From contig CM000151.3 in assembly GCA_000004695.1 (NCBI GenBank), positions 4,608,001 through 4,672,000 of the forward strand: a stretch of 64,000 nucleotides of DNA. Direction: 5' to 3'. This DNA is from Dictyostelium discoideum. Lineage: Eukaryota. The notes under the pieces are model-generated. The model ran no database searches. It saw nothing but the letters and a program-made list of their open reading frames with translations, and was not told where the DNA came from. The position numbers and the translations under genes are program-made. Shown one piece after another: positions 8,354 through 55,703 of the stretch (its first letter is position 1; each line of letters starts with the position of its first letter).

Positions 8354-8387
<34 letters not shown>

Positions 8388-26620: not shown

Positions 26621-26744
26621 TAAAATGAAATCTTCTAAAACAAATAAATAAATCTTTTTATTTGCAAAGAATTTACTTCTCAATTGAGACGTGCATTTAA
26701 ATTGACACCGAATAAACCACCTGCAACTGTTGCATTAAAATATT

Positions 26745-28149: not shown

Positions 28150-28742
28150 TATTTTAGAATTAATTGATATAAATTATTATTATTATTAATATTTTTATTA
28201 TTATTAATGGTGATATGATGATTTAAATTATTTTTAATGATTATAAGTATTGAACAATCGAATGCAATTCTTTTATTTCTATTGTCAATTGTGTCATTAT
28301 TGTTATTATCTGTAATTGAATGAGTGTATATAGTTTCATCATTAGAATTATTGGTTATGAATGTATTTTTTAAATTTTGAATATGATTATTTAGTGTTTG
28401 AAATTGTTGATCATTTAATCCTTTTAAATCATTTAAATGGGTTTCTTCCTCTTCTTCTTGTCTATATAAATATGTTTTTATAAATTGGTATAATAATTAT
28501 AAAAATAATAATAAAAATATAAAATAATTAAAGTGCGTTGATGCATACAATTTGTTTTCTTTTTTTTTTTGAAGGTTTTGATAATTGTTTTTATAATTAT
28601 TGATACTATTACAATAATCTTGTACTTGGTTGAATGTAATATTTAAATTATTAATTGATAATATTAATAAACAATTTAAAAGCTCTTCATTATTTTTATT
28701 ATTATAATTATTAATTAAATAAAAGTAAATTATACTATCCAT
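28150..28742 (-). pseudogene. Truncated 5' fragment of an FNIP-array gene (exon 1, intron and first ~110 codons of exon 2)
   Basis: Exon-1 module is MDSIIYFYLINNYNNKNNEELLNCLLILSINNLNITFNQVQDYCNSINNYKNNYQNLQKKKENK (ORF 28497..28742). The fragment is collinear with 25140..25744 of G1. Homology stops abruptly at ~28150. Confidence 0.6.
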
Positions 28743-29235
28743 TTGATAGCCAAATTAATTTTATCAAATAAAAAAGAAAAAAAAATGGTACTTTTTTTTT
28801 AATTTTGGTATTTAACTTTATTTTTTTATTATCAACATTAAATACTTTTTCTTAAAATAATTAATTATCAAAAAAAATGCGCCCATTCCCTTTTTTTAAA
28901 TTTTTTTTATTAACCTAGATATTTTTATTTTGATAAATTTTATGATAAAAAAAAAAACAAAAAAAAAAAAAAATCTAAAAAAATCACTGGTTGGTAAAAG
29001 CTTTTTTTTTAAAAAAAAATAGTTTTTCGTGATTTTGGCAAAATTTCATTTTTATATGAACATGTAAAAGATCGGCCAACATTAAAAAAAAAAAATATAT
29101 TTTTTTTTTTTTTTTAAATCAGACTGTTTTTTAGAGAGTTTTATTTAAAAACCACAATATACCACTTGGGATCACAAAAAATAAAAAAAAAATAAAAAAA
29201 ATTAAAACATTTGCATTAAAAAATTTATTTAAAAA

Positions 29236-31295
29236 TTAATAATTTAATTTCCCACGTTTTAATAGTTTTGTATGTTTGATAAAGAAATCTGTGGGAATAG
29301 AGTTTATAAAATTTAAACTATCATTGTAGATATAAACAAATTCGAATGAAGGTGGCCATATTAAATCTGGTAATTCATCACAATTATAACCTGTAAAATA
29401 AAATGATTTCAAATTAGGTGGTAAGGCATCTCTATCGATAGTTGAATCGAAAAAATCAGAAATTCGTAATAAAGTGAGTGATGATGGTAATACATCTTTT
29501 TGAATTGGTTGTTTGTAACTTGGTAATTTTAATACCCCTATAGATGATGGTAGATCTCCAACATTTAAGGGTTGATTAAAACCATAGATTTTTAATTTTT
29601 TAAGATTATTTGGTAAGAGACTATCGTTTAATTCGAATTCATCTGAAACTGTTAAAACTAGTTTTGAAATAGTAGGCGGGAATTTTACATCTGTTAAATC
29701 TATTTGACTTACATTGAGTTTCAACGAAGTTAAATTTTTGAAAAAATATAAAGAGTGTAAATGTGGGTGGGAACGAGTAGTGAAATCCATTATTTTTAGT
29801 GTTTGAATTGTTTTGGGCAATAGAAACACTTCAAGGCATTCATGTATTGATAAATTTGTAATTGTTGGTGGTAATTGAGCTGAATAGTCTTTGTTTCTAC
29901 CAAGATGTAAAGTTTTAATTGAGATTGGTAATGAATCTGGTTCAAGTTTATGATTGCCCGAACCGAATTTCAATGATGTAACATTGTTTGAAATCACTCC
30001 TTTTTCAATGGTCTGATTGAAAAAATAATCAAACTCTAAAGATGTTGTGCCACCTGGTACCGATGTTGAGTCAAATTTACATGTACCATCTTTAGAATCA
30101 AAATAACAATGAAGAGTTGTTACTGACTTTGGTATTGATCCATATAGAATTACTCCTTGATATTTTGGATCCAATAATAATGATGTAAGTGATGGTGGTA
30201 TTTCGTCTCTATGAATTGAATGTTGAAATAGTTTTCCAAAAGTTAAAGATTTTAATGTTCTTGGTAACCATGGTATACCATTTGTATCACTTAAAGATTG
30301 ATTAAATTCATTACCAAAATCAATAGATGTTAGACTATTACCAATGATATTACGGGTTAATTGTTGATCAAAATCTATAAATGTAATGGATTTACATGTA
30401 TCTGGTATCCAGTGTTCTCCAAGTATAATATCTGAACATCTCATCTCTATATTTTCAACAATTTGTGGCATTGGATAACAATTTGAGTTACGTTGGTTTT
30501 TATAGCCATCAGAATCCAATAACTTGACATTATTAAAATAATTTCTATATTTATATGTTGAAATGTTATTTCTCCTTATATCAAAGCTATGATTATGATT
30601 ATTATATATTCTAAGATGAAATAAAATTTGATCCCTAATAATCATATTTCCCCAAAACTTTTTAAATAATATATAATTATTATCAATTGTTTGATTTATT
30701 TGTTGATTTGTTTTAATTTTATTATTAATATCAGATTGTGATTTTAAAATTAATTGATTTATATTATTATTATTAGTGAGATGATTTAAATTATTTTTAA
30801 TGATTATAAGTATTGAACAATCGAATGAAATTCTTTTATTTCTATTGTTAATTGTGTCATTATTATTATTATCTGTAATTGAATGAGTATATATAATTTC
30901 ATTATTAGAATTATTGGTTGTTAATATATTTTTTAAATTTTGAATTTGATTATTTAGTGTTTGAAATTGTTTGTCATTTAATCCTTTTAAATCATTTAAA
31001 TGCTTTTTTTCCTCTTCTTGTCTAAAAATGTTTATAAATTAGTATAATAATATAATAATAAAATATAAAATATAAAATAATCAAAGTGTGTTAATGCATA
31101 CAATTTTTTTATTTTTTTTATTTGAAGGTTTTGATTATTGTTTTTGTAATTATTGATACTATTACAATAATCTTGAAGTTCATTGAATGTAATATTTAAA
31201 TTATTAATTGATAATATTAATAAACAATTTAAAAACTCTTCATTATTTCTATTGTTATAATTATTAATTAAATAAGAGTAAATTATATTATCCAT
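29236..31295 (-). CDS. FNIP-repeat protein, array copy G3: exon 1 31102..31295, exon 2 29236..31021
   Basis: Exon 1 is MDNIIYSYLINNYNNRNNEEFLNCLLILSINNLNITFNELQDYCNSINNYKNNNQNLQIKKIKK. The intron is 80 nt, phase 2 (tt|GTATGC...tttttag|a). Exon 2 is open from the acceptor through stop 29236 (RQEEEKKHLNDLKGLNDKQFQTL...MIIRDQILFHL...FNQSLSD... FNIP repeats). The 3' ~500 nt are nearly identical to G1. Confidence 0.6.
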
Positions 31296-31515
31296 TTGAT
31301 ATTCATAAAAAAAAAATAATAAATAATAAAATGGAATTAAAAAAGTAAGATTGACTTGTACAGAAATAGTTTTTCCTAAGGGATAACCAAAAAAAGGCAC
31401 TTTTTTTTGGCCCTCAAGGTGAAAAATAAAATTGGAACTTCCTGTGGGTAATTGAGTTAATTATGAAAAACTTAGTGATTTAGAATAAACCAAATTATTA
31501 AAAAATTTTCATTCC

Positions 31516-31555
<40 letters not shown>

Positions 31556-31676
31556 ATGAATGCATGGCTTAAACTTTTAAATAATATTAAACAATATTTG
31601 CTAAAATCTATTGTAAAATTAAATTTAAAATGTAATTATTAGTATTTAAAAAAAAATAAAAAAAAAAAATGAACTT

Positions 31677-31712
<36 letters not shown>

Positions 31713-32338
31713 AACCCCGAAAAAAAAAAAAAAATAAACTCAAAAAAAAAATAAACTCAAAAAAAAAATCACAAATAAAAAACAAACCCTTTTTCTATTT
31801 GAGCCCTGGTATTTCTGATTTTTTTTTTTTTTGGAAATTATTCTTTTTATTCTATTTATTTTTTTTTTAAATTTTTTTAATAACCTTGTTTATTCCCCAA
31901 TAACTTAATCTTTTTCAAAAACTTTTTTTTTTTTACAATAACTCAATTTTTCAAGGAATGGTTCACCAGCAAACTTTTTTTTCACTTTGTTTTATTAAAA
32001 TTTTAAGTAAAAAAAAATAAAGAAATAATAAAAATTCTCTTTTTTTAATAAACTATTATTTTTTTTTTCAATTTATAACTTTTTTATAAATTTCTATTTT
32101 ATAACTTTTTTATAAATTTCTATTTTATAACTTTTTTTTTTTTTTAAATCTTAAAAAAAAAAAAAAAAAAAAATAATAATAATAAAAGCCAATAATAGTA
32201 ATAAAATTTTAAAAAACTAATTACAAAATTTTCATTATCAAATTTTATTTATTTAGTTCATTTTTTTTTTCTGATTTTTTTTTTTTTTTTTTGATTTGAT
32301 TTAAATTAATTCGATTTTATTTTTTCAAAAAAATTAAT

Positions 32339-32379
<41 letters not shown>

Positions 32380-32779
32380 TTGGTTGGAATGCCAAGCTTC
32401 AGTGGCAGAATGTTCAGTCAACAATCAAACAGTAAATAATACAATTTCAATCATTCATTAAAAATTTATTATTTTATCAAAGCAACAAATTCTGATCAGT
32501 GCGACTATATCTTTTGAAATTTATTAGCAGCAGTTGATTATTTTATGGTTGCAACAACTCTAATAGGATGAATTCTAGTAACAAACAGATAATCTACTTG
32601 TCGATGGCAAATATTGTTCAACATTCACAACTAATTGATAGAACTGATTCAATAGAAGTTTTATATCAACTCTTGATATTTGCCAATATGTTTGGACCAA
32701 TAATAATAACAATGGTAAAGAAGAATCAGATGAGCCAATATTAAAAGTTGGTAATAATGTTTAGGTTCATTCAATACTG

Positions 32780-34340
32780 GAAAACTTAGAAACCTCCAAT
32801 AAAGTGAGTGATGATGGTAATACATCTTTTTGAATTGGTTGTTCGTAACTTGGTAATTTTAATATCTCTATCGATGATGGTAGATCTCCAACATTTAATG
32901 GTAGATCGAATTCATATATTATTAATTTTTTAAGATTATTCGGTAGGAGACTATTGTTTAATTTGAAATTTTATAAAACTGTCAAAGTTAGTTTTATAAT
33001 GGTAGGTGAGAATTCTACACCAGTTAAATCCACTCCAATTGCATTAAGTTCCAATGATTTTAAATTTTCAAAAATATGGAAAGAGTGGCTATCTAATTGG
33101 GTAAAATTATTTGAACCAATTATTTTTAGTTTTTCAATTGTTTTGGGCAATATTCCGATGTCAGAGAATGTAACAATTGATAAATTTGTAATTGTTGGCG
33201 GAAAGACTTTTTGAGTAAAAATGGTTCTGTTTCGACCTAGACCTAAAGTTTTAATTGATATTGGTAATGAATTTGGTTCAAGTTTATAATCGCCCATACG
33301 GAATTTCAACGATGTAACATAGTGTGGAATCATACCTTTTTCAATGGTCCCATTATAATAAAAATCAAACTCCAATGAAGTTGTACCACCTGGTACCGAC
33401 GTTAAGTCAAATTTATATATGTCGTGTTCTTTAAAAAATAAAGAATAATGAAGAGTTGTTACTGATTTTGGTATTGATCCATATTGGATTACTCCTTTGT
33501 ACACTGGAATAAATATTAGTGTTGTAAGTGATGGTGGCATTTCATCTCTATGAATTGAATGTTGAAATGATTTTCCAAAAGTTAAAGATTTTAATGTTCT
33601 TGGTAACCATGGTTCACCTTTTGTGTCACTTAACGATTGATTAAATTCATTACTAAAATTAATGGATGTTAGACTATTACCAATAATGTTACGGGTTAAT
33701 TGTTGATCAAAATAGGTAAATTTAATGGATTTACAAGTATCTGGTATCCAATGATCTACTAGTATAATATCTGAACAATTCATCTCTATCTTTTCTGCAG
33801 TTGATGGCATTGGACAACAATTTGAGATATTTTGTTGGTGGTTGTTATTCTCATCAGAATTCGATATGTTGGAATTATTAAAATAATTTCTATATTTATA
33901 TGTTGAAATATTATGTCCCCCTATATCAATGCTATAAATGATTCTGATTATTATATATTCTAAGATGAAATAAAATTTGATCCCTGATAAATATATTTCC
34001 CCAAACTTTTTTTAAATAATATAATTATTATCAAGTGTTTGATATATTTGTTGATTCGTTCTTACTTTATTAATATCAATTAATTTTAAAATCACAACCT
34101 GATTTAAATTATTGCATTTATTATTACTATTATTGGTGGTATGATTTAAATTATTTTTAATGGTGATATGATGATTTAAATTATTTTTAATGATTATAAG
34201 TATTGAACAATCGAATGCAATTCTTTTATTTCTTTTTGTTAATTGTGTCATTACTATTTTCTGTAATTGAAGGTTTTGATTATTGTTTTTATAATTAATA
34301 CCATTACATTAATCTTGAAGTTGGTTGAATGTAATATTTA
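32780..34340 (-). pseudogene. Decayed FNIP-array copy G4: truncated at both ends, internal deletion fusing exon-2 and exon-1 sequence
   Basis: ORF 32971..33810 holds the FNIP-repeat core (...FNQSLSDTKGEPWLPRTLKSLTFGKSFQHS...). The C-terminal coding stops matching at ~32780. The 5' side (33810..34340) is homologous but shows frameshifts and a deletion, then runs into a non-AT-rich block at 34350. Confidence 0.55.
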
Positions 34341-34484
34341 AATTATTAACATCCAAGCCATGATCGCTTAGAAGGGCTTGTATTAACCCGTTGGCACGAA
34401 TAGCCCGGACAGCAGGACAGCCCTTAAAAAAAATTTTAAAAAAAAAAGGGCTGGTTTCAAGATTTTTTTTTTTTTTTTAAAATA

Positions 34485-35195
34485 AAAAAGGACCACACAG
34501 GCTTATAAAAAGAATTAATTTGTCATAAAAATTAAATGTAATAAACGTATTAAAAAAATTTTAAAATTTTAAAATGTAATGAATGTATTAAAAAAATTTT
34601 ATAATTTAAAATGTAATAAACGTATTAAATTATTAAAAAGAAATGTATTATTTTAAATAAAAAAATAATAGATATTTAAGTGTTATGAAGGAAGTTTTTT
34701 TTTATTTAAGTTTAATAAATTTAAATTAAAGCATGGAGATTTGTCACATTAATTTTTTATTTTTCGAGAACCTGCCTCTCTCTTTTTGACTCAGACATTT
34801 TTTTTTTTTTTATTTTTTTTTTTTTTTTTGGCTTGAATATTTTGTCGGCAAGCTGCCGAAAGAATTAATGTGATCATTTTTACCGGCCGGTAGTTTTAAT
34901 ATGGGAACCATTAGTTAATATGTATTGTCACTACAGTCTTTTGCGGTGTTTTGTTTAAAGTTGATTCTTTTCAAATATTGGGACTTCCCATATAAAACTA
35001 CCGGCCGGTAAAAATGTCACATTAATTCTTTCGGCAGCTTGCCGACAAAATATTCAAGCCAAAAAAAAAAAAAAAAAATAAAAAAAAAAAATATCTGAGT
35101 CAAAAAATCACATAAAAAAAAAAAATGAGCGAAATTTTTTGACAATCTGGTTTATTAATTCAAATTATTATTTTAATAATAATAATAATAATTTT

Positions 35196-35249
<54 letters not shown>

Positions 35250-35530
35250 CTGAGTCAGTTTTTAAAAAACAAAAAAAAAAAAATTAATGTGACAAATTAT
35301 TAAATAGTTATTTATTGAAATATTTATTTTCGTATGTGCGACTGACTGTGTCTTTTATTTTTGATATTTTCTTTGTATGATTTTGGTTTATTATTTGAAA
35401 TAAATAAATTCATTGGAAGTGCCACCATTTAAATTTTTTTTTTTTTTTTGGGAAAAAACAACATGTGTATTTGGATCCATTTGAAAAGATTGTAAAAAGG
35501 ACTACACAGGCTTATAAAAAGGTTTTTTTT
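34485..35530. mobile_element. Composite non-coding element: ~27-bp direct repeats at both ends, 33-bp tandem repeats, and a nested ~310-bp perfect hairpin with TTGTCACATTAAT termini. MITE-like, non-autonomous DNA-transposon-like
   Basis: AAAAGGACCACACAGGCTTATAAAAAG at 34487 and AAAAGGACTACACAGGCTTATAAAAAG at 35497. (aaatgtaataaacgtattaaaaaaattttaaaattttaa)x3 at 34545..34650. Long inverted repeat arms gactcagacattttt...ggcttgaatattttgtcggcaagctgccgaaagaattaatgtgatca (34788..34895) against tgtcacattaattctttcggcagcttgccgacaaaatattcaagcc...atatctgagtc (35022..35100). Extra terminus copies at 34742 (ttgtcacattaat) and 35246..35295 (atatctgagtc...attaatgtgacaa). No ORF. Confidence 0.45.
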
Positions 35531-35739
35531 AAAAAAAATTAAAAAAAAAAAATAAAAACAATAAAAAAAACGATAAAAACATTACAATTTTTTAATTTTT
35601 TGTTAATTAATGTTCTTTTAAATAAAAAAAAATATATAAAAATAAAAAATAAAAAAAATAAAATAAAACAATTACATCAAAACAGTTGTTTTAAAAATTA
35701 ATATTTTTATTTTATATTTTTTTTTTTTTAAAATTGTTC

Positions 35740-37821
35740 ACTTTGTAATAGTTTTACATGTTTGATAAAGAAATGTGTGGGAATGGAATTTATAAAATCT
35801 AAACTATCACCACAGATATAAATAAATTCAAATGAAGGTGGCCATATTAAATCTGGTAATTCTTTACAACCATAACCTGTAAAATAAAATTATTTTAAAT
35901 TTGGTGGCAATGCATCTCTATCCATACTTGAATTGAAAAAATCTGAAACGCCTAATAAAGTGAGTGATAATGGAAATAAATCTTTTTAAATTGGTTGTTT
36001 GTACTGTGGTAGCTTTAATACCTCTATTGATGATGGTAAATCTCCAACATTTAATGGTTGATTAAAATTAAATAATTTTAATTTTTTAAAATTATTTTGT
36101 AAGAGACAATCATTAAATTCCAAATAATCTGAAACTGCTAAAGTTAATCTTGAAATAATATTTGGGAATTTTACATTGGTTAAATCCACCTGTTTTGCAT
36201 CAAAGTTCAATGATGTTAAATTTTTAAGAAAATAAAAAGAGTGGTTATCTAATTGGGAAGGAGGACTAAAATCCATTATTTTTAGTTTTTGAATTGTTTT
36301 CGGTAATATTTTGATATCAGAGAATGTATATACTGATAAATTTGTAATTGCTTGTGGGAAGACATCTCGAGGAAAGTTTTGGTTGCTACCAAGATGTAGA
36401 GTTTTAATTGAGATAGGTAATGAATTTGATTTAATTATACTATTGCAGAAACTGAATTTCAACGATGTAACATTGTGTGAAATCATACCTTTTTCAATGG
36501 TCTGGTCAAAAAAAGAATCAAACTCTAATGATGTTGTACCACCTGGTATCGATGTTGAGTCTAATTTAGCACCACCCTTAGAATCAAAATAATAATGAAG
36601 AGTTGTTACCGATTTTGGTATTGATCCATATTCGATTACTCCTTTATATTTTGGATCCAATATTAATGATGTAAGTGATGGTGGTATTTCGTCTCTATGA
36701 ATTGAATGTTGAAAAGATTTTCCAAAAGTTAAAGATTTTAATGTTCTTGGTAACCATGGTATACCATTTTTGTCACTTAATGATTGATTAAAATCCTTGC
36801 CAAAATCAATGGATGTTAGACTATTACCAATGATATTACGAGTTAATTGTTGATTAAAATGCGAAAATATAATGGATTTACATGTATCTGGTATCCAGTG
36901 GTCTACTAGTATAATATCTGAACATCTCATCTCTATCTTTTCCACAATTTGTGGTATTGGATAACAATTTGAGTTATGTTGGTCGCATAAGCCATTAAAA
37001 CTCAATAACTTGACATTATTAAAATAATTTCTGTATTTATATGTTGAAATATTATTTCTCTTTATTTCAAATGCTATGATTATGATTATTATATATTCTA
37101 AGATGAAATAAAATTTGATCCCTGATAAATATATTTCCCCAAACTTTTTTAAATAATTTATAATTATTATCAATTGTTTGATCTATTTGTTGATTTGTTC
37201 TTATTTTATTATTTAAATCAGGTTGTGGTTTTAAAATCAATTGATTTAAATTATTACTATTATCATTATTTTTAATGGTGATATGATGATTTAAATTATT
37301 TTTAATGATTATAAGTATTGAACAATCGAATGCAATTCTTTTATTTCTATTGTTAATTGTGTCATTACTATTATTGTTATTATCTGTAATTGAATGATTA
37401 TATATAACTTCATCATTAGAATTATTGGTTGTAAATGTGTTTTTTAAATTTTGAATATGATTATTTAGTGTTTGAAATTGCTGATCATTTAATCCTTTTA
37501 AATCATTTAAATGCTTTTTTTCCTCTTCTTCTTGTCTATATAAATATGTTTTTATAAATTAGTATAATAATAAAAATAATAATAAAAATAATATATAAAA
37601 CAATCAAAGTGTGTTAATGCATACAATATTTTTTTTCTTTTTTTTATTTGAAGGTTTTGATTATTGTTTTTGTAATTATTGATACTATTACAATAATCTT
37701 GAAGTTGGTTGAATGTAATGTTTAAATTATTAATTGATAATATTAATAAACAATTTAAAAACTCTTCATTGTTTTTATTATTATAATTATTAATTAAATA
37801 AGAGTAAATTATGTTATCCAT
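35740..37821 (-). pseudogene. FNIP-array copy G5 with a +1 frameshift near 37080 and a premature stop at 35986: probable pseudogene
   Basis: Exon 1 is intact (MDNIIYSYLINNYNNKNNEEFLNCLLILSINNLNITFNQLQDYCNSINNYKNNNQNLQIKKRKK, start 37821). Exon 2 has a 1-nt insertion (catagcAtttgaaata vs G3 catagctttgatata), so the acceptor frame hits TGA. ORF 35986..37173 stops at ...YKQPI*, where intact copies continue another ~95 aa. The homologous tail 35740..35985 contains further stops. Confidence 0.5.
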
Positions 37822-37991
37822 TTGATATTAAAAAAAAAAAAAAAAAAAAATCTCCAAAAAAAAAAAAAAAAAAAAAAAAAAATATCTCCAAAAAAAAAAA
37901 AAAAAGCTTTTTTTTTTGGGGCAGTGTTTTTTTTTTTTATTTTTAAATTTTTATTTTTAAACTTTAATAACAAGAAAAACATTTTATAATA

Positions 37992-40064
37992 TTATTTTAA
38001 TCTAATATGGTTGGTAAAGAAGTCAAGATCAATTGAATTGATGAAATTAAAGCTGGCTTCTGAGATATAAGCAAATTCAAATGAAGTTGGCCATATTAAA
38101 TTTGGTAATTTTCTAAGTTCACGACCATGAAAATAAAATAATTTTAAATTTGGTGGTAATGCATCTCTTTGTATGGTTGAAATGCAATGATCTTGTAATT
38201 TTAAAACATTGAGTGAAGAAGGTAAATCACCATTTTTTATTGGGTAATCATAATTGGGTAATTTTAAAACTTCAATTGAAGATGGTAAATCACCATTGGC
38301 AATTGGGTGGTTAAATTCTTTAAGTTTTAATTTTTTGAGTGAATTTGGGAAGATTCCATTACTCAATTTTAAATTTGGGCAACTTAATACTATTCTTAAA
38401 AGTGTATTTGGAAAAACCCCTTCTTCTAAAACTGAATCAGATAGTTTTTCAATTTTTAATGATGTTAAATTTCTAAAATTATTAAATGAGATTTTTGATA
38501 AATTAAAAAAACTTGTTATTTTTAAAGATTCTATTGATTTTGGTAAAAAGCAACTATGATAATCACCATAAATTGATAATTTTTTAATATTAGGTGGTAA
38601 GATATTATCACTATCCAATTCAATTGAACCTATTCTTAATGTTTTAATTGATAGAGGTAATGAATTTGGTTCAATTTCAATTTTAGAAATATTATCAATT
38701 TCCAAAGATGTTACATTAATGGGAATCATATCTTTTTTGATTGTTTGATTAAAATAACAACCAATTTTTAATGAGGTTACACCTTTACTAATTGATTTTG
38801 TATCAAAATGATTTTTTCTGATTGTGAAAAATTCATAATGAAGAGTTGTAACTGATTTTGGTATTGATTCATTTAAGATTATTCCTTGATATTCAGAGTC
38901 CAAAAATAGTTCTGTCAATGATTGAGGTAATTCATTTCTTTGAATTGTTTGTTGAAATGATTGACCTAGACTTAAAGTTTTAAGTTTCTTGGGTAACCAT
39001 GGTAATCCATTTGAATCACTCAATGGTTGATTAAATGAATTTCCAAAGAAAATTGTAGTCAAACTATTACTAATTATATTTCTATTTAATTTTTGTTGAT
39101 TAAAGTTATGAAAATAAATTGATTTACATGTATCTGGTATCCAATGATCACCTATTGTAATACTTGAACAATCAACTTCAACTCTTTCAACTCCATATGG
39201 TAATGGATAAAAACGATTTGTTAATGGGGTAAATCCAATTTCGCCATTATTATCCTCAATTATTAATTTAACATTTTTAAAATAATTTCTATATTTATAT
39301 GGTGTAATCTCTTTTATTGGAATCCCATAAAAACCACAATTAAGATTATTATATATTTTAAGATGAAATATAATTTGTTTCCTAATAATCATATTTCCCC
39401 AAACTCTTTTAAATAAATTATAATTTCTTTCAAAGCTGTTTGAATTATTTTTTAATTTATTATTATTATTATTATTTAAAATTTCTTTAGAATTATTAAT
39501 AAAAATACAAGTTTCTTTAAAATTATTATTATTATTATTATTATTAATTGTGATGAGATGATTTAAATTATTTTTAATGATTAAAAGTATTGAACAATCA
39601 AATGCGATTCTTTTATTTCTATTGTTAATTGTTTCATTATTATTATTATCTGTAATTGAATGTTTATATATAATTTCTTCATTGAAAATTTTGCTATAGA
39701 AGATATTTAAAATTTGTGTATGATAATTTACTATTTCAAACTGTTGTTCATTTAATCCTTTAAAATCACATAAAAAATCATTTTTTTCATTTCTATTTAT
39801 AAAACATAATAATAATATTAATTTTTATTAGTGATAAAAATAAAATTTATTATAAGGGTATATATGTATATTTTTTTTTTTATTTATTTAAATATTTATA
39901 CAAACAATAATGTTTTTCTTTTTAAATTATTATTATAACAATAATTTAATAATTCATTAAAAGTTATATTTAAATTATTAATTGATAATATTAATAAACA
40001 ATTTAAAAATTCTTCATCATTGTTACCGCAATCATAATTATTAATTAAGTATGAATAAAAAATA
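37992..40064 (-). CDS. Divergent FNIP-repeat protein, array copy G6: exon 1 39898..40064, exon 2 37992..39792
   Basis: Exon 1 is MESIFYSYLINNYDCGNNDEEFLNCLLILSINNLNITFNELLNYCYNNNLKRKTL. The intron is ~105 nt, phase 2 (tt|GTTTGT...ataaatag|a). Exon 2 is open from NEKNDFLCDFKGLNEQQFE... through MIIRKQIIFHLKIYN...FNQPLSDSNGLPWLPKKLKTLSLGQSFQQTIQRNELPQSL... to stop 37992. Confidence 0.55.
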
Positions 40065-48193: not shown

Positions 48194-49430
48194 ATGATGG
48201 CAAAAACAAAAGGATCATATGAAGTATTTCATTATACAGTTACAAAAGATAAAGTAAATAAAGGTTTATGTGATATTGCAAGATATTTCGTACCAGAATA
48301 TAGAAATTCAAAGGATGAAGATTTAACAATTCAAAAATTAAATGGTGGTATCACCAATGTTTGTATGTATATATATATATATATATATTTATATAACAAA
48401 TTTATAAAACACATATATGATATACTAATATATGTAATTTATTTTTTTAATAATAAAAATATATATAGTATATTTAGTTGAAGATAAAAATATTGAACAA
48501 AAATATAGATATTTACCAGTTGTAATTAGATTATATGGTTATAAATCAGAAGAAATTATAGATAGAAAGAATGAATTAATTATACAAACAGAAGCGGATC
48601 AAAATGGATTAGGTGCTAAATTTTATGGACTTTTCGATAACGGTTGTATTTATGGATTTATTAAAGGTGAACCATTGGCATACGAGGATATTAGTAAACC
48701 AACAATGCAAACATGTATCGCCAAAGAGATTGCACAATGGCACTCAATTGAGATGCCTACAAGAAAGAATCCATCACTTTGGCCAACAATAAAGAAATGG
48801 GCAGCTTTGGCACCAGACGTTTATCCAGTACCAGAAAAGAATGAGTATTATCAATCTATCAATGTAAAGAAAATGATTGAAGAGGGTAAAATGTTGGAGC
48901 AAAGATTGGCTCAATTGAATTCACCAATCGTTTTCTGTCATAATGACCTCCTCAGTGGTAATATCATCTATGATCCATCTCAAAATTGTGCCTCTTTTAT
49001 CGATTTCGAATATGCAAACTACAATTTTAGAGGCTTGGAATTAGGTAATCATTTCAATGAATATGCTGGTTTCGGTCCAGATTATTCACTCTATCCAAAT
49101 AAAGAATCACAAATTCACTTTTTAACAGATTATCATAGATCTCTCTTTAAAACTGAACCAACTCAAGATGAATTAGAAAAATTATATATTGAATCAAATC
49201 AATTTTCATTAGCAAGGTAAATTTTTTAAAAAAAAAAAAATTTCAATTTTATTTGTTTTTATTTTTTTACTAATACTAATTTTATTTTTATTAATAGTCA
49301 TTTATATTGGGGTTTTTGGGCAATTGTTCAAGCTATGAATTCTCAAATCGATTTTGATTATTTAGAATATGGTAAAGCACGTTTTGATAGATATTATGAA
49401 ACTAGAGACCAATTTTTAAATCTCAATTAA
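48194..49430 (+). CDS. Choline/ethanolamine kinase, 3 exons: 48194..48362, 48478..49216, 49298..49430 (346 aa)
   Basis: Brenner phosphotransferase motif IVFCHNDLLSGNIIYD and choline-kinase motif FIDFEYANYNFRGLELGNHFNEYAG are present. C-terminal SHLYWGFWAIVQA. Intron 1: t|GTATGT...(TA)n...tatttag|TT, phase 1. Intron 2: ag|GTAAAT...ttaatag|T, phase 2. The frame is conserved across both junctions. Confidence 0.8.
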
Positions 49431-49979
49431 ATTTAAATACTACTATTTGAACGCGTGTAAAATGAATAAATAATCCGAAAAAATAAAAAAATAATTTTAA
49501 TAAAAAAAAAAAAAAAACAAATAAAAATAAAATGTATATTTATTTGAATAAATAATAATGTAACAAAATTTTTTTTTTTTTCCACCTTTTTTTTTAATTA
49601 TTCTTTCCAACTTTTTTTTTATTTTTTATTTATTTTCAATGAAATATGAATTTGTTTTAACCCATTCATTTATACCAATATTGGTTTTTTTAAATAAAAG
49701 AAAAAAAAAAAAAAAAAACAATTCGCTTACGAAATATTATTTTAAATTTTATTTTTTTTTTATTTTTGTTTAATTTTTTTTAAATTTTTAATTTTTTATT
49801 TTTTATTTTTTTTATTTTTTTTATTTTTAATATTACTTGAACTACTTTAAAATTGTTAAAATCTCTTTTAAATGGGAGTTTAGATTAAACCAATAATAAC
49901 AATAATAATAATAATAATAATAATAATTAAAATAATTAAAATTAGCAATAGATGCATAAATAACAATATTAATAATATA

Positions 49980-50045
<66 letters not shown>

Positions 50046-50718
50046 CAATAAAATAATAAAATCATAAATAATGGCTAGTTTAATTTTTCTTTCAGTAACT
50101 CTTTTCAAATCTCTTTTATTTCAAATTTCTTTTAAAGGTGCAATTATTATAATGTTTTTTGCAATGATTTTATTTATTCATTTCTCACCATACCTGAACC
50201 TTGATGGTGTTGGTACTTCAAGTAGTAGATTACCAAGAAGAACAATTCCTTTATCTCCAGTTTTAAAAAAAATAGATTAAAAAAAATAAAATAAAAAATA
50301 AAGAACAAAAAAAAAAATATAAAAAAAAAATAAATAAACAATTGTTTGCATGAATTCAAAATTATAAAGCATAAATTCAAATTAATCAAATATATATTTA
50401 AAGTAAAAACATTGTGCTACATATTATTAGAAATAAAATAGTAACAAAAATACTAATTGTTAATAATGGTTTCGGTTAGTTCAGATAATCATTTTACATA
50501 ATTTTCTATGTATGTACAAGATTTTTTTTTTTTTTCCTCTCTCACAATTTTCCCCACTAACCAATATTTTTCTTTAGAATTAAAGAAAAACTACTCAAAA
50601 ATTATACAACCATACGATATAATCAAAATTTTTTTTTTTTTTCAAAAAAAAAAAAATAAATAAAACTCTTGTTTAAACACTTTTCAATCCTCAAAATTTT
50701 TCCAATAATTTTTTTATT

Positions 50719-50754
<36 letters not shown>

Positions 50755-52119
50755 GATTTTCTATTTTTTTTTTTTTAATTTCCTCTTTTTTTTTTATGTA
50801 TAATTCTTTTTTTAAATATTATTTGTATTGTTCAAAATTTTTCAAAAAAAAAAAATAAAAAAATTATATAGAAAGAAACAAAAAATAGTAATTAAATAAC
50901 AAATATTACAAAAACCTTAGATAATGGTCTAAGATCAGGTAATTATTAATTAATGAAACACCATTTTGGTTAATAAAAAAAATAAAAAAAGAAATTAAAA
51001 ACTATTTTTTTTTTTAACTTCTTTTTTTTTTTTTTTTTTTTTAATTTCCTTTTTTTATCCAATTGTTATTAATAATTTTAATATTTTAATTATAATTTAG
51101 GATTTCAACTATTCTACACATATGTTAAATCTATTCAATAAATTAAATAGTAAATCACCACAAGATGAATCAACAAAACTTCAAAAACAACTATATGAAC
51201 AAATTATAGTGGATTCAAAGTGCAAATCATTATTTGAAGGTATTTGTTCAGATGTGGTTAATTTGTAATAATAAAGATTTTGAATATTTAAATCCTTAAT
51301 TAATTTTTATTTTTTTATTTTTTTAATTATTTTTTTCTTAGAAAGTTTAAATTGGAAAAAACAGATCCACGATTCATTATCACATTCAAAATAATTATTT
51401 GAATCTATTGTTGATAAATTGGGAATAAACCGTTATTGGAGACTAAAAAAACCTAGACCTTGGAAAGAAGAAAGATCAATGCACTCTGTTAACCAGTTGA
51501 TATTGGCCCACTAATAATAAATCGAGTTCTTCAAAGTGATCCTGACAAATCCAGAAATCCCTTCTTCAAACAGAAACAATAATTTTGTAAATAATAGTGA
51601 TAATAATAATAATAGTCAAAAGAAATTACAATCATATTTTTTATAAAGATAAAAATAGGGATAAAGATAAAGATAAAGATGAAAATGAAAATGTAAAAAA
51701 TCAATTTTCAAAATAATGGTAAATTTTCTTTCTATTATTAATTTTTTATTTTTTTTTTTTTTAAATCAAGGTATATAAAAAAAAAAATTTGTGTATTAAT
51801 AATCTAACTATTTAACAGAAAGAAATGACCAAAAAAAAAGAAAGTGGTTAATGCATATGGTGAAAGTATTCTTGGTGACAATGGTGATAATATTGATAAT
51901 AGTGATAATAGTGATAATAGTGATAATGGTGATAATGGCGATGATCTAAATGGTGGAAACATATTTGAAATCAATCAATCATTATTTTCAATGGTATTCG
52001 ATCAACTTCATGATAATAAATTTAGAACAGATTATGATAATCAATTATTAATTGGTATTGAATTTAATTAAATCAATTATTAATGAATTAAAGAAAGTTG
52101 ATATTTTAATAGATCAGGG

Positions 52120-52345
52120 AAAGAATATTTAGGTTTCCACTCTGCCTGTGTATTTATAGATTTTCGGACTTGAAAGAATTCTTTATAAATTTGGCGCTCA
52201 CTATCTATATAGTATGAATGCTTGTAATATTAATTTTAATTGATATTGATTCTTATTAATATTACAAACATTCAAACTATACAGATAATGAGCTCCAACT
52301 TTATAAAGAATTCTTTCAAATTAGAAAATCTATAAACACAGGCAG
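52120..52345. repeat. ~225-bp near-perfect palindrome (hairpin element) in intergenic DNA
   Basis: Left arm ggtttccactctgcctgtgtatttatagattttcggacttgaaagaattctttataaatttgg... Right arm ...ctttataaagaattctttcaaattagaaaatctataaacacaggcagagtggaacc. Centre gaatgcttgtaatattaat/attaatattacaaacattc is itself palindromic. Confidence 0.6.
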
Positions 52346-52405
52346 AGTGGAACCAAAGATTTTTAAAAGTTCAATTATTTATCAATTCAAAGCTATCAAT
52401 TTTAA

Positions 52406-52834
52406 ATTCATCAAAAAAACAATCAAAAATATAAAATTGGTAAAAAAGTTAAAGAAAATATTCAAAAGAAAAAAAGAAAAAAAGATTCATTTAAAAATCA
52501 ATTAAATTTTTTACTTCCAAATAATAATCTAAATAATAATCCAAATAACAATAAAAATAATAATAAAAACAATTTTAGTAATAGTAGTATTAGTAATAAT
52601 AGGTCAATTGTACAATCACAAACAATTTCTGATATTGGATATGTACCGCGCCAACAACAACCACAACAACAACCACAACAACAACAACCACCACAATCGT
52701 CAAGAAAAAGAAAATTAGAATCAGAATCATCAACCTCATCTCTCAAAAAACAAAGAAATCCATTCAAAAAAAACAAACTTAGAATGGAATCATCCTCGCC
52801 ACTCGAGAAACAAAAAGTCTCCAAATTTATTTAG
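52406..52834 (+). CDS. Putative coding exon (stop-to-stop 142 codons, no initiator Met until near the end): basic/poly-N/poly-Q nuclear-protein-like sequence
   Basis: Plus frame reads ...KKDSFKNQLNFLLPNNNLNNNPNNNKNNN...IGYVPRQQQPQQQPQQQQPPQSSRKRKLESESSTSSLKKQRNPFKKNKLRMESSSPLEKQKVSKFI*. ORF-track entry 52498..52824(-) is its antisense (CCCCGCCC = poly-Q). No upstream exon identified. Confidence 0.25.
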   Translation: MHQKNNQKYKIGKKVKENIQKKKRKKDSFKNQLNFLLPNNNLNNNPNNNKNNNKNNFSNSSISNNRSIVQSQTISDIGYVPRQQQPQQQPQQQQPPQSSRKRKLESESSTSSLKKQRNPFKKNKLRMESSSPLEKQKVSKFI

Positions 52835-53030
52835 AAGATGGTTCAAAAAAATACATTTCAAGTGGTAACTTTTTTTTTATTAAAATAATTTAAACTATCC
52901 AGGTAATACATATCCAGATTTTTACTACTTGAAAAGTATATTTTTGAACCTTCTTCAAAAATAATTTTGGAAACTTTTTTCTTTCTCGAGTGGTGAAAAT
53001 GATGATTCTGATTCTAAGTTTCTTTTTTTG
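52770..53030. repeat. Inverted duplication (~110-bp arms, ~85% identity, ~35-bp spacer) spanning the 3' end of the putative exon above
   Basis: ccattcaaaaaaaacaaacttagaatggaatcatcctcgccactcgagaaacaaaaagtctccaaatttatttagaagatggttcaaaaaaatacatttcaag (52770..52875). Against the reverse complement of 52910..53030 (ttgaaaagtatatttttgaaccttcttcaaaaataattttggaaacttttttctttctcgagtggtgaaaatgatgattctgattctaagtttctttttttgaatgg). Confidence 0.55.
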
Positions 53031-53059
53031 AATGGTGAGGTTGTATACTATGAATTTAG

Positions 53060-53240
53060 CCAGGGATTCAAATTTAAAATTTTATTTATTGTTTATTGAA
53101 ATGAATTTATTAATTTTGGACCAACATTCAAGGTTGAGTATAGATATTCGTATACAGAAAAGAGTTTGAATGTCTATGTTGGTCAACATTATTGCCATTT
53201 CCAGGATTTTTAATATAATTGCATTTCAATAAACAAAAAA
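53060..53240. repeat. Degenerate ~180-bp palindromic element
   Basis: tttattgtttattgaaatg...ttggaccaacattcaa // ttgaatgtctatgttggtcaa...catttcaataaacaaaaaataaa. Confidence 0.4.
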
Positions 53241-53588
53241 TAAACCTTCAAATTATATTTCAAAATGAAGAATTCAGTATCAAGTATTAAAATAAATAAT
53301 AAAACTTTTATTTTTTTTATTTTTTTTTTTTATTTTTTTTTTTTTCTTTAAGTTAATTAAACAACCAATAGTATTTTCTTTAAATATTTTATATCTGATT
53401 TCTGTATCATTTTCTTTCTTAGCAATTGGAAAAAAAAAAAAAAAAAAAAACATTACAAATAATTAATTTTAGATATATTACTTTTAAAATTTTTTATTTT
53501 TTTTTATTTTTTTTATTTTATTTTTTATTTTATATTTTCAATTTAACTTTTTTTCTTTTTTTCTTTTTTTTTTTTTTTTTTATATAAT

Positions 53589-54598
53589 TTAAGCCATTTC
53601 AAGTTCAGCACCAGAAGCCTTTAATTTAGCAATAATCTTTTCTGCTTCTTCTTTTGAAACTTTATCGGCAATAACTGAAGGAATCTTTTCAACGAGACCT
53701 TTAGTTTCCATTAAACTGAGTGATGGTTTGACTTCTCTTAATTCTTTAATAATCTTATATTTGGCACCATCTGGTACTTTAACGAGTCTAACTTGGAAAT
53801 CTGTTTTGGCAACAGCGGCTGGTGCAGCAGCGGCAGCTGGGGCAGCTCCACCTGCTGGGGCACCTGAACCGAGACTGGAAAGATCAATATCTGGAATACT
53901 TAATTTTTTCTATAAAATAAATAAAAAAAAAATAAAAAAAGGGGAGAGGTTTATGATTAGCATCACAAAAAGTGGTAAATCAAAATTCCATTTACAAAGA
54001 TTTTAATATTTTTCATTTTTTTTTTTTTTTTTAATGGTGATGTGTGAATAATTTTCTGTTGTTCCTTTTTCCTTTCTTTTTTCCTTTTTCCTTTTTCCTT
54101 TTTTCCTTTCTAATATTTAAATCTGTGCTATTATTTTTTTATTATTATCACTCTGACCTATTTTTGTGTTATGTGTTTGCTAAATGCTAAATTGAAATGA
54201 ACTATTTGGCCAATACTATTAAAATCATTCTAAAAAAAACTGGAAATTGATTGATTTTTTTTTTTTATTTCTTGTCGCTATAAACATTTTGATATTGTGC
54301 TGTTTGCTATATTCTACTACATTATTCACATACCAACTCACTCCATTAATTCAAAAAAAATAAAAAATAAAAAATAAAAAAAAAAAGTAAAGAATATATA
54401 AAAAATAAAATTCATACTTGTAAATGTTGGGTTAAATCCATAACGTCCAAAATGGAAAGTTTTGAGATTCTTTCGACTAAATCAGCAACTTCTGTTGAGG
54501 ATTTACCATTTTCAATTGTGGTAAGTTTAAGGTTAACTTTTTCTGGTTCTGTTGTGAATAAACGAGTGCTATATAATGTATTGTTGTTGCACTTTAAC
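53589..54598 (-). CDS. mrpl12: Mitochondrial ribosomal protein L7/L12 (bacterial bL12 type), 3'-terminal two exons: 54418..54598 and 53589..53909. The first (Met/presequence) exon is not located
   Basis: NTD: ...STEVADLVERISKLSILDVMDLTQHLQ (compare bL12 [22 protein letters not shown]). Ala/Pro hinge GAPAGGAAPAAAAAPAAVA. CTD: FQVRLVKVPDGAKYKIIKELREVKPSLSLMETKGLVEKIPSVIADKVSKEEAEKIIAKLKASGAELEMA*. Intron 53910..54417 (caa|GTATGA...ttttatag|AAA, phase 0). The upstream acceptor aaaatag|G at 54599 implies a further 5' exon. No in-frame ATG precedes it before the TAA. Confidence 0.65.
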
Positions 54599-54626
54599 CT
54601 ATTTTATCATTATTTAAAATTTTTAA

Positions 54627-54657
<31 letters not shown>

Positions 54658-55703
54658 AACACATTAATATAGATATTTTTTTTTTTTATTTTATTTTTTT
54701 TTTTTTTTATTTTCTGTTTTAATTATTTTATTTTATTTTATTTTATTTTGTTGAAGGTATTATGTATTGTTTTAAAATTATTATTATTATTATTATTATT
54801 TTTTTTTTTAGATGTGTATGTGTGTATTATTTATCAGATTTTTCGTTTTTTCAAAAAAAAAAAAAAATGAAAATTTTTTTTTCCCCACATTAAAATCACA
54901 CGCAATAATTTATTGATTGATCATTAATTTTATTTTTGCTATTATTATTAAAATTTTATTTTATTTTGCATTGTTTCACCCAAACATACTTTGATAAAGT
55001 TGAAAAACATTTATTGAGTGATACTCTTGAGATCATTTTAATTTTTATATAATTATATGTATAAAACAGCACAATGAAAAAAGTAGTCGAGAATAAAACT
55101 GAAAAAAAAAAAGAAAAATAAAAAAAAAAAAAAATAAAAAAAAAAAATAAATAAAAATTAAAAAAAAAAAAAAAAATGAAAAAAAACAAAAATGAAAAAA
55201 AAAGAAAAACGCATTTCATCAAAGAACTTCGCCAGATTACCACCAAAATAAAAAAATAGGGAAAAAAAAAAAAAATAAAAAAAATAAAAAATAAATTTCA
55301 ACAATTAAAACAGTGTTATAATTATTTTAATCCAAATCTATTTTTATAATATATACATTTTTTTTATTAAATATTTTCGTATTTCCCCAAAAAAAATAAA
55401 AAAATAAAAAAAAAAACTAAACACTTGAAATAATTTTTTATTTGCCTTTTCTGAACCAAGTATTTCTTCCAGAAATTTCTAAAAATAAAATAAAAATAGA
55501 AATAAAAAAATAAAAAATAAATTATTTAATTTGGGTTTTAAATAAAATAATTTATTTATGTTGAGAAATTTTATTTTATATTTTTAAATTTCTTTCTTTT
55601 CATCCAATTTATCATTACCATTAATTTGGTTAATTTTGTTTGCAAAATGTCTAAAACATTGGAGAATAATATTATTTTCAGCTGAAATATCTCTTTCAAA
55701 TAA

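What the first reader, a model, noticed from the sequence alone, without database searches (positions are those of the whole stretch)
52120..53240. Three unrelated palindromic / inverted-repeat structures within 1.1 kb
52120..52345 is a near-perfect ~225-bp palindrome. 52770..53030 is an inverted duplication (~110-bp arms). One arm contains the last ~20 codons and stop of a putative plus-strand exon. 53060..53240 is a degenerate palindrome. Hairpins of this size are atypical for plain spacer DNA. They suggest MITE insertions, hairpin-mediated rearrangement, or precursors of structured RNAs (long hairpin RNAs or siRNA loci).
Basis: seen in the sequence. Interest (0 to 1): 0.5.

Follow-up and report, generated by a model that had tools for sequence, protein, structure and literature searches.

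The report
Palindrome cluster in an unstable Dictyostelium spacer

Summary
All three inverted repeats exist at about the stated coordinates and fold far better than shuffled controls (z = -20.9, -10.9, -4.1). They are base-identical in a second assembly, so they are not artefacts. The window is D. discoideum AX4-type chromosome 2. The palindromes lie in the 3'-3' spacer between a conserved 69-aa gene and the mitochondrial L12 gene DDB_G0274407. This spacer is 3.3 kb here and about 0.3-0.9 kb in D. firmibasis and D. dimigraforme.

Six orthologous loci show lineage-specific turnover. Pal3 is shared only with D. cf. discoideum. Pal1 and pal2 lie in a 2.28-kb block absent from three related species. 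Two diverged D. discoideum isolates keep pal1 but lack 716 nt covering all of pal2 and pal3's left arm and loop. Rearrangement breakpoints fall at palindrome landmarks.

Pal1's arms group by side, not by strain, with 0 compensatory changes in 133 pairs. No arm recurs in about 200 kb held. There is no Rfam or published ddi-miRNA match. The "exon" in pal2 has no protein homologue.

Best reading: neutrally decaying relics of local inverted duplication at an unstable spacer. MITE and hairpin-RNA readings are unsupported but not excluded: no genome-wide search or small-RNA data were available.

The parts
52121..52364 (.). Pal1: a 244-nt palindrome with core arms 52149-52234 / 52255-52340 and a 20-nt loop. 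It lies about 50 nt downstream of the TAA at 52069-52071 that ends the orphan gene's open frame.
   Evidence: It is present at about 90% identity in isolates L006 and L007 and absent from D. cf. discoideum, D. firmibasis and D. dimigraforme. Its arms cluster by side, not by strain. 0 of 133 pairs show compensatory change.
52696..52822 (+). Two diverged tandem units (about 52696-52762 and 52753-52822; 61% alike) at and upstream of pal2's left arm.
   Evidence: The inverted right arm shares 'CAGAATCATCA' with unit 1 and 'CCACTCGAGAAA' with unit 2.
52760..52868 (+). Pal2 left arm: the last 24 codons, the TAG stop (52832-52834) and 34 nt beyond, of the frame open over 52406-52831.
52869..52921 (.). 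Pal2 spacer: 53 nt of unique sequence.
52922..53035 (-). Pal2 right arm: a reverse-complement copy of the left arm (96 matches, 12 mismatches, 7 gap nt). On the minus strand it gives only a 27-codon pseudo-ORF.
   Evidence: No counterpart exists in any other locus held.
53071..53254 (.). Pal3: a degenerate palindrome with outer arms 53071-53110 / 53215-53254, inner arms 53119-53131 / 53166-53184, and a central region 53134-53165.
   Evidence: An orthologue in D. cf. discoideum (83% over 202 nt) also folds as a hairpin, z = -5.6. It is absent from D. firmibasis and D. dimigraforme.
50761..53041 (.). A 2.28-kb lineage-specific block holding an orphan gene, pal1 and pal2. D. cf. discoideum, D. 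firmibasis and D. dimigraforme have no counterpart.
   Evidence: Its right edge is 6 nt beyond pal2's right arm.
52451..53166 (.). A 716-nt segment present in AX4-type DNA but missing in isolates L006 and L007. It covers the 'terminal exon', all of pal2, and pal3's left arm and loop. The junction is GGTAAAAAAGTT|TGAATGTCT, with GTT microhomology.
52406..52834 (+). An open frame of 142 codons plus stop, low-complexity and rich in N, Q and K. One assembly's gene caller used it as the terminal exon of a 356-aa model.
   Evidence: No homologue was found and there is no Pfam match. It is absent from the isolates.
50071..50280 (+). A conserved 69-aa gene that forms the left border of the convergent spacer.
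   Evidence: 89% identical to a 70-aa gene called in D. firmibasis.
53589..55036 (-). The mitochondrial ribosomal protein L12 gene (DDB_G0274407; three exons), forming the right border of the convergent spacer.

Best explanation
The three palindromes are non-coding structural relics that built up in one unstable, AT-rich spacer between two converging genes of D. discoideum chromosome 2. They are not copies of a mobile element, and they are not conserved RNA genes.

Inferred mechanism: local reverse-complement copying creates an inverted duplication beside its source in one step. This could happen by fold-back priming at a broken or stalled end, or by replication template switching. Pal2 is the clearest case: 109 nt of the 3' end of an open frame were copied in reverse complement 53 nt downstream, next to a tandem duplication of the same sequence. 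The new arm ends at the edge of the lineage-specific block.

Once formed, the arms drift apart without constraint. The hairpin-prone DNA also seeds further breaks. One lineage lost 716 nt ending at the base of pal3's right arm, and the sister species has a different palindrome at the same site.

Shown here: the structures are real and single-copy in the sequence held, they have a lineage-specific distribution, breakpoints coincide with palindrome landmarks, and pal1's pairing is not maintained. Inferred: the copying mechanism, the direction of each event, and that the hairpins have no function.
For: The structures are real and reproducible. They lie in a convergent spacer that is 3.3 kb here and about 0.3-0.9 kb in the outgroups, whose spacers contain no complex palindrome.

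Distribution: pal3 occurs only in D. discoideum and D. cf. discoideum. Pal1 and pal2 lie in a block absent from three species. Pal2 is absent from two D. discoideum isolates. The sister species has a private 256-nt palindrome between the same flanks.

Pal2's right arm keeps features of both tandem units of the left side, so tandem and inverted duplication occurred in situ.

Breakpoints: the block edge lies 6 nt from pal2's outer end. The 716-nt indel ends at the first base of pal3's right inner arm, with GTT microhomology.

Neutral decay of pal1: left arms are 87-94% alike across strains and right arms 89-99%, but left versus right is only 82-83% in every strain. There are 0 compensatory changes and 11 broken pairs among 133. 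Substitution in the palindrome is not lower than in its flanks.

One-step creation of hairpins by template switching is documented in PMC8794818 and PMC10710096.
Against: No pre-duplication allele was found for any of the three palindromes, so the copying event itself is not observed. The direction of the block difference (gain in D. discoideum or loss in D. cf. discoideum) is also unresolved.

Arm lengths of about 110 nt exceed the inverted fragments usually scored as template-switch mutations; the cited study's minimum was 15 nt. For pal1 and pal3, neither arm can be identified as the source copy.

The breakpoint coincidences were noticed after the fact, on only two informative rearrangements. 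The covariation test has low power, with three sequences and a structure taken from one of them.

Lack of function is inferred from lack of conservation, without expression data. A young, lineage-specific function would look the same.
Confidence: 0.6

Rival explanations
1. Pal1, and possibly pal3 and the sister species' palindrome, are insertions of short non-autonomous palindromic transposons (MITE or foldback type). The spacer would be a preferred landing site.
For: The size (about 180-250 nt), AT-richness, full palindromy and lack of coding capacity fit such elements. The sister species' insert has complex 20-nt inverted ends (TATTATAACCTGGCTCGTGAG) around a simple AAATA-repeat core, plus a tandem copy of one end, which looks transposon-like. 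Different palindromes sit between the same flanks in two lineages. D. discoideum is known to carry small repeat elements such as thug-S (PMC4894637).
Against: No second copy of any arm exists in the 64-kb window or in the six other loci. No exact match to pal1's conserved arm blocks was found in the metagenome collection, which probably holds little or no dictyostelid DNA. Pal1's symmetry fades gradually at its ends, with no sharp terminal repeat and no convincing target-site duplication. No empty-site allele was found. Pal2 cannot be a transposon, because one arm is continuous with the open frame and its tandem repeat.
Confidence: 0.15
2. One or more of the hairpins are young hairpin-RNA or proto-miRNA genes. 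Pal1 would be transcribed in the intron or 3' region of the orphan gene. Pal2 would be part of a 3' UTR that folds back onto its own stop-codon region. Both would be diced by DrnB into 21-nt RNAs.
For: The stems are long and stable: pal1 gives -132 kcal/mol as RNA, and both pal1 and pal2 have stems of about 110 bp. D. discoideum has DrnB-dependent miRNAs, including intronic ones. Hairpins longer than 200 nt in related amoebae are read as newly evolved miRNAs (PMC6161686; PMC11014262). The first plus-strand AATAAA after the 52834 stop is at 53229, so a transcript could include the whole of pal2. Template switching is a documented route to new miRNAs (PMC10710096).
Against: There is no Rfam match above threshold. 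None of the published mature ddi-miRNAs maps in the window. Diagnostic strings from all three hairpins are absent from the text-held supplements of two catalogues. The only chromosome-2 miRNA in the 2024 set is unrelated. No DUSE-type promoter element lies nearby. There is no compensatory change and no arm homogenisation. Pal2 is dispensable in two isolates.
Confidence: 0.1
3. The hairpins act in cis at the DNA or RNA level as a barrier or terminator between the two converging transcription units.
For: All of them sit between converging 3' ends. Every D. discoideum-group lineage examined keeps at least one large palindrome in this spacer.
Against: The outgroups manage with a spacer of about 0.3-0.9 kb and no complex palindrome. 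The identity of the palindrome differs between lineages. Pal1's pairing is not maintained. L12's own AATAAA signals lie within about 100 nt of its stop, well short of pal3. I know of no precedent for hairpin terminators of RNA polymerase II genes in this organism (own knowledge).
Confidence: 0.05
4. The structures are chance self-complementarity of AT-rich DNA, or assembly artefacts.
For: Low-complexity A-run/T-run inverted repeats are very common in this genome: 92 loose hits in the window.
Against: The arms are high-complexity (24-27% G+C, dinucleotide entropy at least 3.5). The fold z-scores run from -4 to -21, and no shuffle does as well. The sequence is identical in an independent assembly. 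Orthologues of pal1 and pal3 exist in other lineages.
Confidence: 0.02

Closest known systems
Hairpins and inverted duplications created by replication template switching (template-switch mutations; PMC8794818, PMC10710096)
   Same: A reverse-complement copy lies next to its source with a short spacer, so a long hairpin is made in one event. It arises in previously unstructured, non-conserved sequence. A tandem duplication sits in the same few hundred bases.
   Different: The arms are about 110 nt, longer than the inverted fragments usually scored (the cited study's minimum was 15 nt). No ancestral 'before' sequence is available, so the switch points cannot be fitted. There is no evidence of transcription or processing.
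Palindromic AT-rich repeats (PATRRs) and centre-break revision of palindromes in mammalian genomes (own knowledge, not tested against a paper here)
   Same: These are AT-rich palindromes of a few hundred bases that are polymorphic between individuals. Deletions remove one arm and the centre, and rearrangement breakpoints fall at palindrome landmarks.
   Different: This is an amoebozoan spacer, the arms are already 11-14% diverged, no translocation is involved, and the breakpoint association rests on two events.
MITEs and foldback elements, including Dictyostelium thug-S (PMC4894637)
   Same: Short, AT-rich, non-coding, hairpin-forming and located in spacers or introns. thug-S yields small RNAs.
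   Different: These palindromes are single-copy in all sequence held, lack defined terminal repeats or target-site duplications, and pal2's arm is continuous with the local open frame.
[quoted passage not shown]
   Same: Hairpins longer than 200 nt with few mismatches, restricted to one lineage. Pal2 is an inverted duplicate of a gene-like 3' end.
   Different: No small-RNA reads are known from here, the hairpins are absent from published catalogues, and there is no sign of selection on pairing.

Membership tests
MITE / foldback transposon | Multiple dispersed copies in the genome | tested here: inconclusive
   No extra copy in the 64-kb window or in six other loci, and 0 hits in the metagenome scan. 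No tool here searches a Dictyostelium genome, so a family of fewer than about 1,000 copies could be missed.
MITE / foldback transposon | Sharp terminal inverted repeats flanked by a target-site duplication | tested here: not met
   Pal1's symmetry fades gradually over 52121-52135 and 52352-52364. Only a chance-level AAAG occurs on both sides. Pal2's left arm is continuous with an open frame and its tandem repeat.
MITE / foldback transposon | Empty-site alleles whose boundaries match the element ends | tested here: not met
   The presence/absence differences found (50761-53041 and 52451-53166) do not coincide with the ends of any single palindrome.
miRNA / hairpin-RNA gene | A stable hairpin precursor | tested here: met
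   Fold z-scores are -20.9, -10.9 and -4.1. Pal1 as RNA gives -132 kcal/mol.
miRNA / hairpin-RNA gene | Small RNAs of a defined size from both arms, dependent on Dicer (DrnB) | not testable with these tools
   No read data are available. Indirectly, no published mature ddi-miRNA maps here, and the hairpin strings are absent from catalogue supplements.
miRNA / hairpin-RNA gene | Pairing kept in evolution (compensatory changes or conservation) | tested here: not met
   0 compensatory changes and 11 broken pairs among 133. The arms diverge independently. Pal1 and pal2 are absent outside D. discoideum, and pal2 is absent from two isolates.
miRNA / hairpin-RNA gene | Match to a curated RNA family | tested here: not met
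   No hit at gathering thresholds. The best sub-threshold hit, MIR868, scores 41 bits against a 200-bit cut-off.
Template-switch / fold-back inverted duplication | A reverse-complement copy adjacent to its source, with a short spacer | tested here: met
   Pal2 has arms 52760-52868 and 52922-53035 and a 53-nt spacer. Pal1 has a 20-nt loop.
Template-switch / fold-back inverted duplication | An ancestral allele lacking the copy, explained more simply by one switch event than by point changes | tested here: inconclusive
   Relatives lack the palindromes, but only as part of larger differences. No allele has one arm only.
Fragile AT-rich palindrome (PATRR-like) | Polymorphic deletions or rearrangements with breakpoints at the palindrome centre or ends | tested here: met
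   The 716-nt indel ends at the loop/right-arm boundary of pal3. The block edge lies 6 nt from pal2's outer end. This rests on only two events, noticed after the fact.

The most novel reading that the evidence does not exclude
The locus catches hairpin-RNA genes at birth in an amoebozoan. Template switching would have created about 110-bp hairpins inside the transcript of a lineage-specific orphan gene: pal1 in its intron or 3' region, and pal2 folding the 3' UTR back over its own stop codon. DrnB would dice these into small RNAs that act on the host gene. Different strains would then carry different stages of gain and loss.
Probability: 0.1. Interest if true: 0.6.

Novelty: new member of a known kind. 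Interest (0 to 1): 0.3.

Why it matters
If the main reading holds, this is a small natural example of how palindromes are born, decay and trigger further rearrangement in a very AT-rich eukaryotic genome. It is resolved across closely related lineages: a spacer grew several-fold, a sister species carries a different palindrome between the same flanks, and a deletion ends at a hairpin base.

It is useful as a caution for annotation. Three assemblies give three different gene models across this block, and one of them merges a conserved 69-aa gene with unrelated open frames.

It is also a candidate locus for anyone studying palindrome instability or the birth of miRNAs in Dictyostelium. It does not reveal a new kind of element or mechanism.

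Tried and rejected
- Rfam search of the whole window at gathering thresholds, and of the region at E up to 10, gave nothing usable. There are no tRNA genes that could mark TRE-type insertion sites.
- Self-BLAST of each palindrome against the window and all fetched loci found no other copies.
- A metagenome scan with a 30-base pattern from pal1's conserved arm blocks returned 0 matches. That collection probably holds no dictyostelid DNA, so this is weak evidence.
- Protein homology for the 'terminal exon' and for a low-complexity-free concatenation of the block's open frames gave nothing. Exhaustive HMMER against 1.84 billion representatives gave 0 hits. Pfam and PDB gave nothing.
- Published ddi-miRNA sequences were searched in the window; the best matches need at least 5 edits, which is noise. 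Catalogue supplements were searched for hairpin strings, with none found.
- I considered that the palindrome at 34.8-35.1 kb was a thug-S-type element related to miRNA_can_D3. I rejected this: there is no match within 5 edits, and its end motif occurs only at its own locus.
- I tested whether the palindrome mutates faster than its flanks. The difference is not significant (p = 0.19 and 0.51).
- The original repeat catalogue (Glockner et al. 2001, PMC311061) is not held, so thug and DDT consensus sequences could not be compared.
- An age order of pal3 > pal2 > pal1 from arm divergence is not supported by substitutions (14.5%, 11.1% and 13.3%). It is supported only by indel erosion and phylogenetic distribution.

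Full report
**What is there**

The window is very AT-rich (about 22% G+C). It encodes, exon for exon, the AX4 protein DDB_G0274407, the mitochondrial ribosomal protein L12. It is therefore AT-type... AX4-type Dictyostelium discoideum chromosome 2.

- **Pal1.** Core arms are 52149-52234 and 52255-52340 (86 nt, 88% complementary, 20-nt loop). Gapped alignment extends them to 52135-52352 and, more loosely, to 52121-52364. As single-stranded DNA it folds at -74.9 kcal/mol, against -16.1 for shuffles (z = -20.9).
- **Pal2.** The left arm is 52760-52868 and the right arm 52922-53035, separated by 53 nt. The fold z is -10.9.
- **Pal3.** It spans 53071-53254 and is degenerate, but still folds better than all 200 shuffles (z = -4.1).

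The three share no sequence with one another. They are identical base for base in an independent assembly of the same strain type, GCA_054883475.1, so they are not assembly artefacts. A strict scan finds only three high-complexity local palindromes in the whole 64 kb: pal1, pal2 and one at 34783-35106. It finds one in 64 kb of three related species. The cluster is unusual.

**Genomic setting**

The palindromes lie between two converging genes. On the left is a 69-aa open reading frame (50071-50280, plus strand), 89% identical to a gene called in D. firmibasis. On the right is the L12 gene (53589-55036, minus strand). The spacer is 3.3 kb here.

Gene callers disagree about its content. Three D. 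discoideum assemblies give models of 356, 263 and 313 aa. Nothing is called in D. cf. discoideum or D. dimigraforme.

The frame that supplies pal2's left arm (open 52406-52831, stop at 52832-52834) is low-complexity and has no detectable relative. Two word-indexed searches gave no hits. An exhaustive HMMER search of 1.84 billion representatives gave 0 hits. Pfam gave nothing.

The block does contain something constrained. The segment 51104-51220 differs at 1 of 117 nt, a synonymous change, between the window and a diverged isolate. The adjacent spacer shows about 8% mismatches and many gaps. I take this to be an orphan gene whose open frame ends at the TAA at 52069-52071. Pal1 would then lie just downstream of it, or in an intron (52055-52448) if the 356-aa model is right. 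That intron is my inference, not a tool result.

**Comparison across lineages**

Using the L12 protein I fetched the orthologous locus from four further assemblies: D. cf. discoideum (L003), D. firmibasis (L004), D. dimigraforme (L005), and two diverged D. discoideum isolates (L006, L007). Gene order is conserved, but the spacer is not.

- **D. firmibasis and D. dimigraforme.** Homology runs from the choline kinase gene to about window 50300-50830 and resumes at about 53470-53485. Neither the block nor pal3 exists there. Their short spacers hold only A-run/T-run complementarity.
- **D. cf. discoideum.** It matches the window up to 50760 and again from 53042. It therefore has pal3 (83% over 202 nt), and that copy also folds as a hairpin (z = -5.6). 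It lacks 50761-53041, the 2.28-kb block with the orphan gene, pal1 and pal2. In its place are 455 nt holding a different 256-nt palindrome with complex 20-nt ends.
- **Isolates L006 and L007.** They have the left part of the block and pal1 (about 90% identity) but lack window 52451-53166. That 716-nt segment contains the 'terminal exon', all of pal2, and pal3's left arm and loop. Pal3's left arm is present in D. cf. discoideum, so the isolates' state is most simply a deletion. Its junction (GGTAAAAAAGTT|TGAATGTCT) shows GTT microhomology. Its right end is the first base of pal3's right inner arm.

Both informative rearrangements therefore have a breakpoint at a palindrome landmark. One is 6 nt outside pal2's right arm. 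The other is at the loop/arm boundary of pal3.

**How the arms evolve**

I aligned the six pal1 arms from three lineages. Left arms are 87-94% alike across strains and right arms 89-99%, but left versus right is 82-83% within every strain. Pal1 therefore formed once, before these lineages split, and its arms have since diverged independently. There is no arm-to-arm conversion.

I counted pairs on the three-way alignment using the window's own predicted hairpin. Of 133 pairs, none shows a compensatory change, 11 are simply broken in one or two strains, and 5 change to a wobble pair. Power is low, and the structure comes from one of the sequences. The result still gives no support for selection on pairing.

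Substitution inside the palindrome (about 8%) is not lower than in its flanks (about 5%; p = 0.19 and 0.51). Ungapped arm divergence is 13.3% for pal1, 11.1% for pal2 and 14.5% for pal3. The flanking spacer differs by about 10% between the window and D. cf. discoideum. All three are therefore old relative to the lineage splits and appear to be decaying neutrally.

**Anatomy of pal2**

The sequence just upstream of and overlapping the left arm consists of two diverged tandem units (about 52696-52762 and 52753-52822). The inverted right arm shares 'CAGAATCATCA' with the first unit and 'CCACTCGAGAAA' with the second. It was therefore copied from a less diverged ancestor of those units.

So a tandem and an inverted duplication both occurred within 350 nt. 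This is the pattern expected from replication slippage and template switching, or from fold-back priming. It is not the pattern of a mobile element. On the minus strand the right arm gives only a 27-codon pseudo-ORF, so it is not the end of a converging paralogue.

**Tests of the alternatives**

*Transposon.* No arm recurs in the window or in any fetched locus. There are no sharp termini or target-site duplications. A metagenome scan was empty, though that collection probably holds no dictyostelid DNA. I could not search a complete Dictyostelium genome, so a low-copy family remains possible, mainly for pal1 and for the sister species' insert.

*RNA gene.* There is no Rfam family. None of the published mature D. 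discoideum miRNAs maps in the window. Diagnostic strings of the hairpins are absent from the text-held supplements of two catalogues. The one chromosome-2 miRNA of the 2024 set is unrelated. No DUSE-type promoter motif lies nearby.

On the other side, the literature shows three things. D. discoideum makes DrnB-dependent miRNAs, some of them intronic. Unusually long hairpins in related amoebae are read as newly born miRNAs (PMC6161686, PMC11014262). Template switching can create miRNA hairpins in one step (PMC10710096). The first plus-strand AATAAA after the 52834 stop is at 53229, so a transcript could contain all of pal2. Small-RNA mapping, which I could not do, is the decisive test.

**Verdict**

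The best-supported explanation is that these are neutrally decaying products of local inverted duplication in a structurally unstable convergent spacer, and that they in turn mark sites of further rearrangement (confidence about 0.6).

This is a new instance of a known kind of event, not a new kind of element. It is of modest interest as a resolved natural example of palindrome turnover in an extremely AT-rich genome, and as a candidate place to look for hairpin-RNA birth.

Noticed in passing
window 34783-35106 (extra end motif at 35243-35257): A fourth high-complexity palindrome that is not in the finding. Its arms (34799-34880 / 35010-35091) are 94% complementary around a 129-nt centre and contain G+C-rich sub-palindromes (CGGCAAGCTGCCG, ACCGGCCGGT). 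Its ends read TTTTTGACTCAGA...TCTGAGTCAAAAA, and the end motif AAAATATCTGAGTCA recurs once more after a poly-A run. It lies between FNIP-repeat paralogues and is 98.9% conserved in the second assembly. A suspected link to miRNA_can_D3 or thug-S was not supported.
   Followed up: partly
L003 12090-12348 (D. cf. discoideum): A private 256-nt palindrome with complex inverted ends (TATTATAACCTGGCTCGTGAG) around an (AAATA)n core, plus a tandem second copy of one end. It sits between exactly the flanks that hold the 2.28-kb block in the window. It looks more transposon-like than pal1-3, and is single-copy in the sequence held.
   Followed up: partly
window 50071-50280 (+): A 69-aa open reading frame that is 89% identical to a 70-aa gene in D. 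firmibasis, probably a real micro-protein gene. The gene caller on GCA_054883475.1 appears to have merged it with downstream lineage-specific open frames into a 356-aa model.
   Followed up: partly
window 53589-55036 (-): The L12 gene is annotated as 182 aa (three exons) in AX4 and in two isolates. In GCA_054883475.1 it is split into a 113-aa and a 99-aa gene although the DNA is nearly identical, which looks like an annotation error in that assembly.
   Followed up: partly
window about 51970-51980; L006 8243-8446; L007 about 8270-8476: The two diverged isolates carry about 200 nt of high-complexity, open, coding-looking sequence (...SKQGTIASPLDIKRFTDRDIKIKVDTIEDKGEGSEAYKIANL...) that the AX4-type window lacks. 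The orphan gene may therefore be truncated in AX4. No Pfam or PDB relative was found.
   Followed up: partly
window 51392-51394: An in-frame TAA separates two open, coding-looking segments (51342-51391 and 51395-51511) in the same frame. Isolate L006 lacks about 170 nt here and reads through. This suggests a degenerating or rapidly restructured gene.
   Followed up: no
window 23680-39392 (-): A tandem array of at least five paralogous FNIP-repeat genes (ORFs at 23680-25533, 29236-30645, 32971-33810, 35986-37173 and 37992-39392). Some copies are truncated, so this is a locally expanding gene family.
   Followed up: no
L006 and L007 against window 48800-54200: Isolates labelled D. discoideum are only about 85-90% identical to the AX4-type sequence across this region when gaps are counted (4-5% mismatches plus many indels). 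That is about as far as the isolate labelled D. cf. discoideum, even though L006's L12 protein is identical to AX4's and L007's differs at one aligned residue. Either this spacer is unusually polymorphic or the species labels hide deeper lineages.
   Followed up: no
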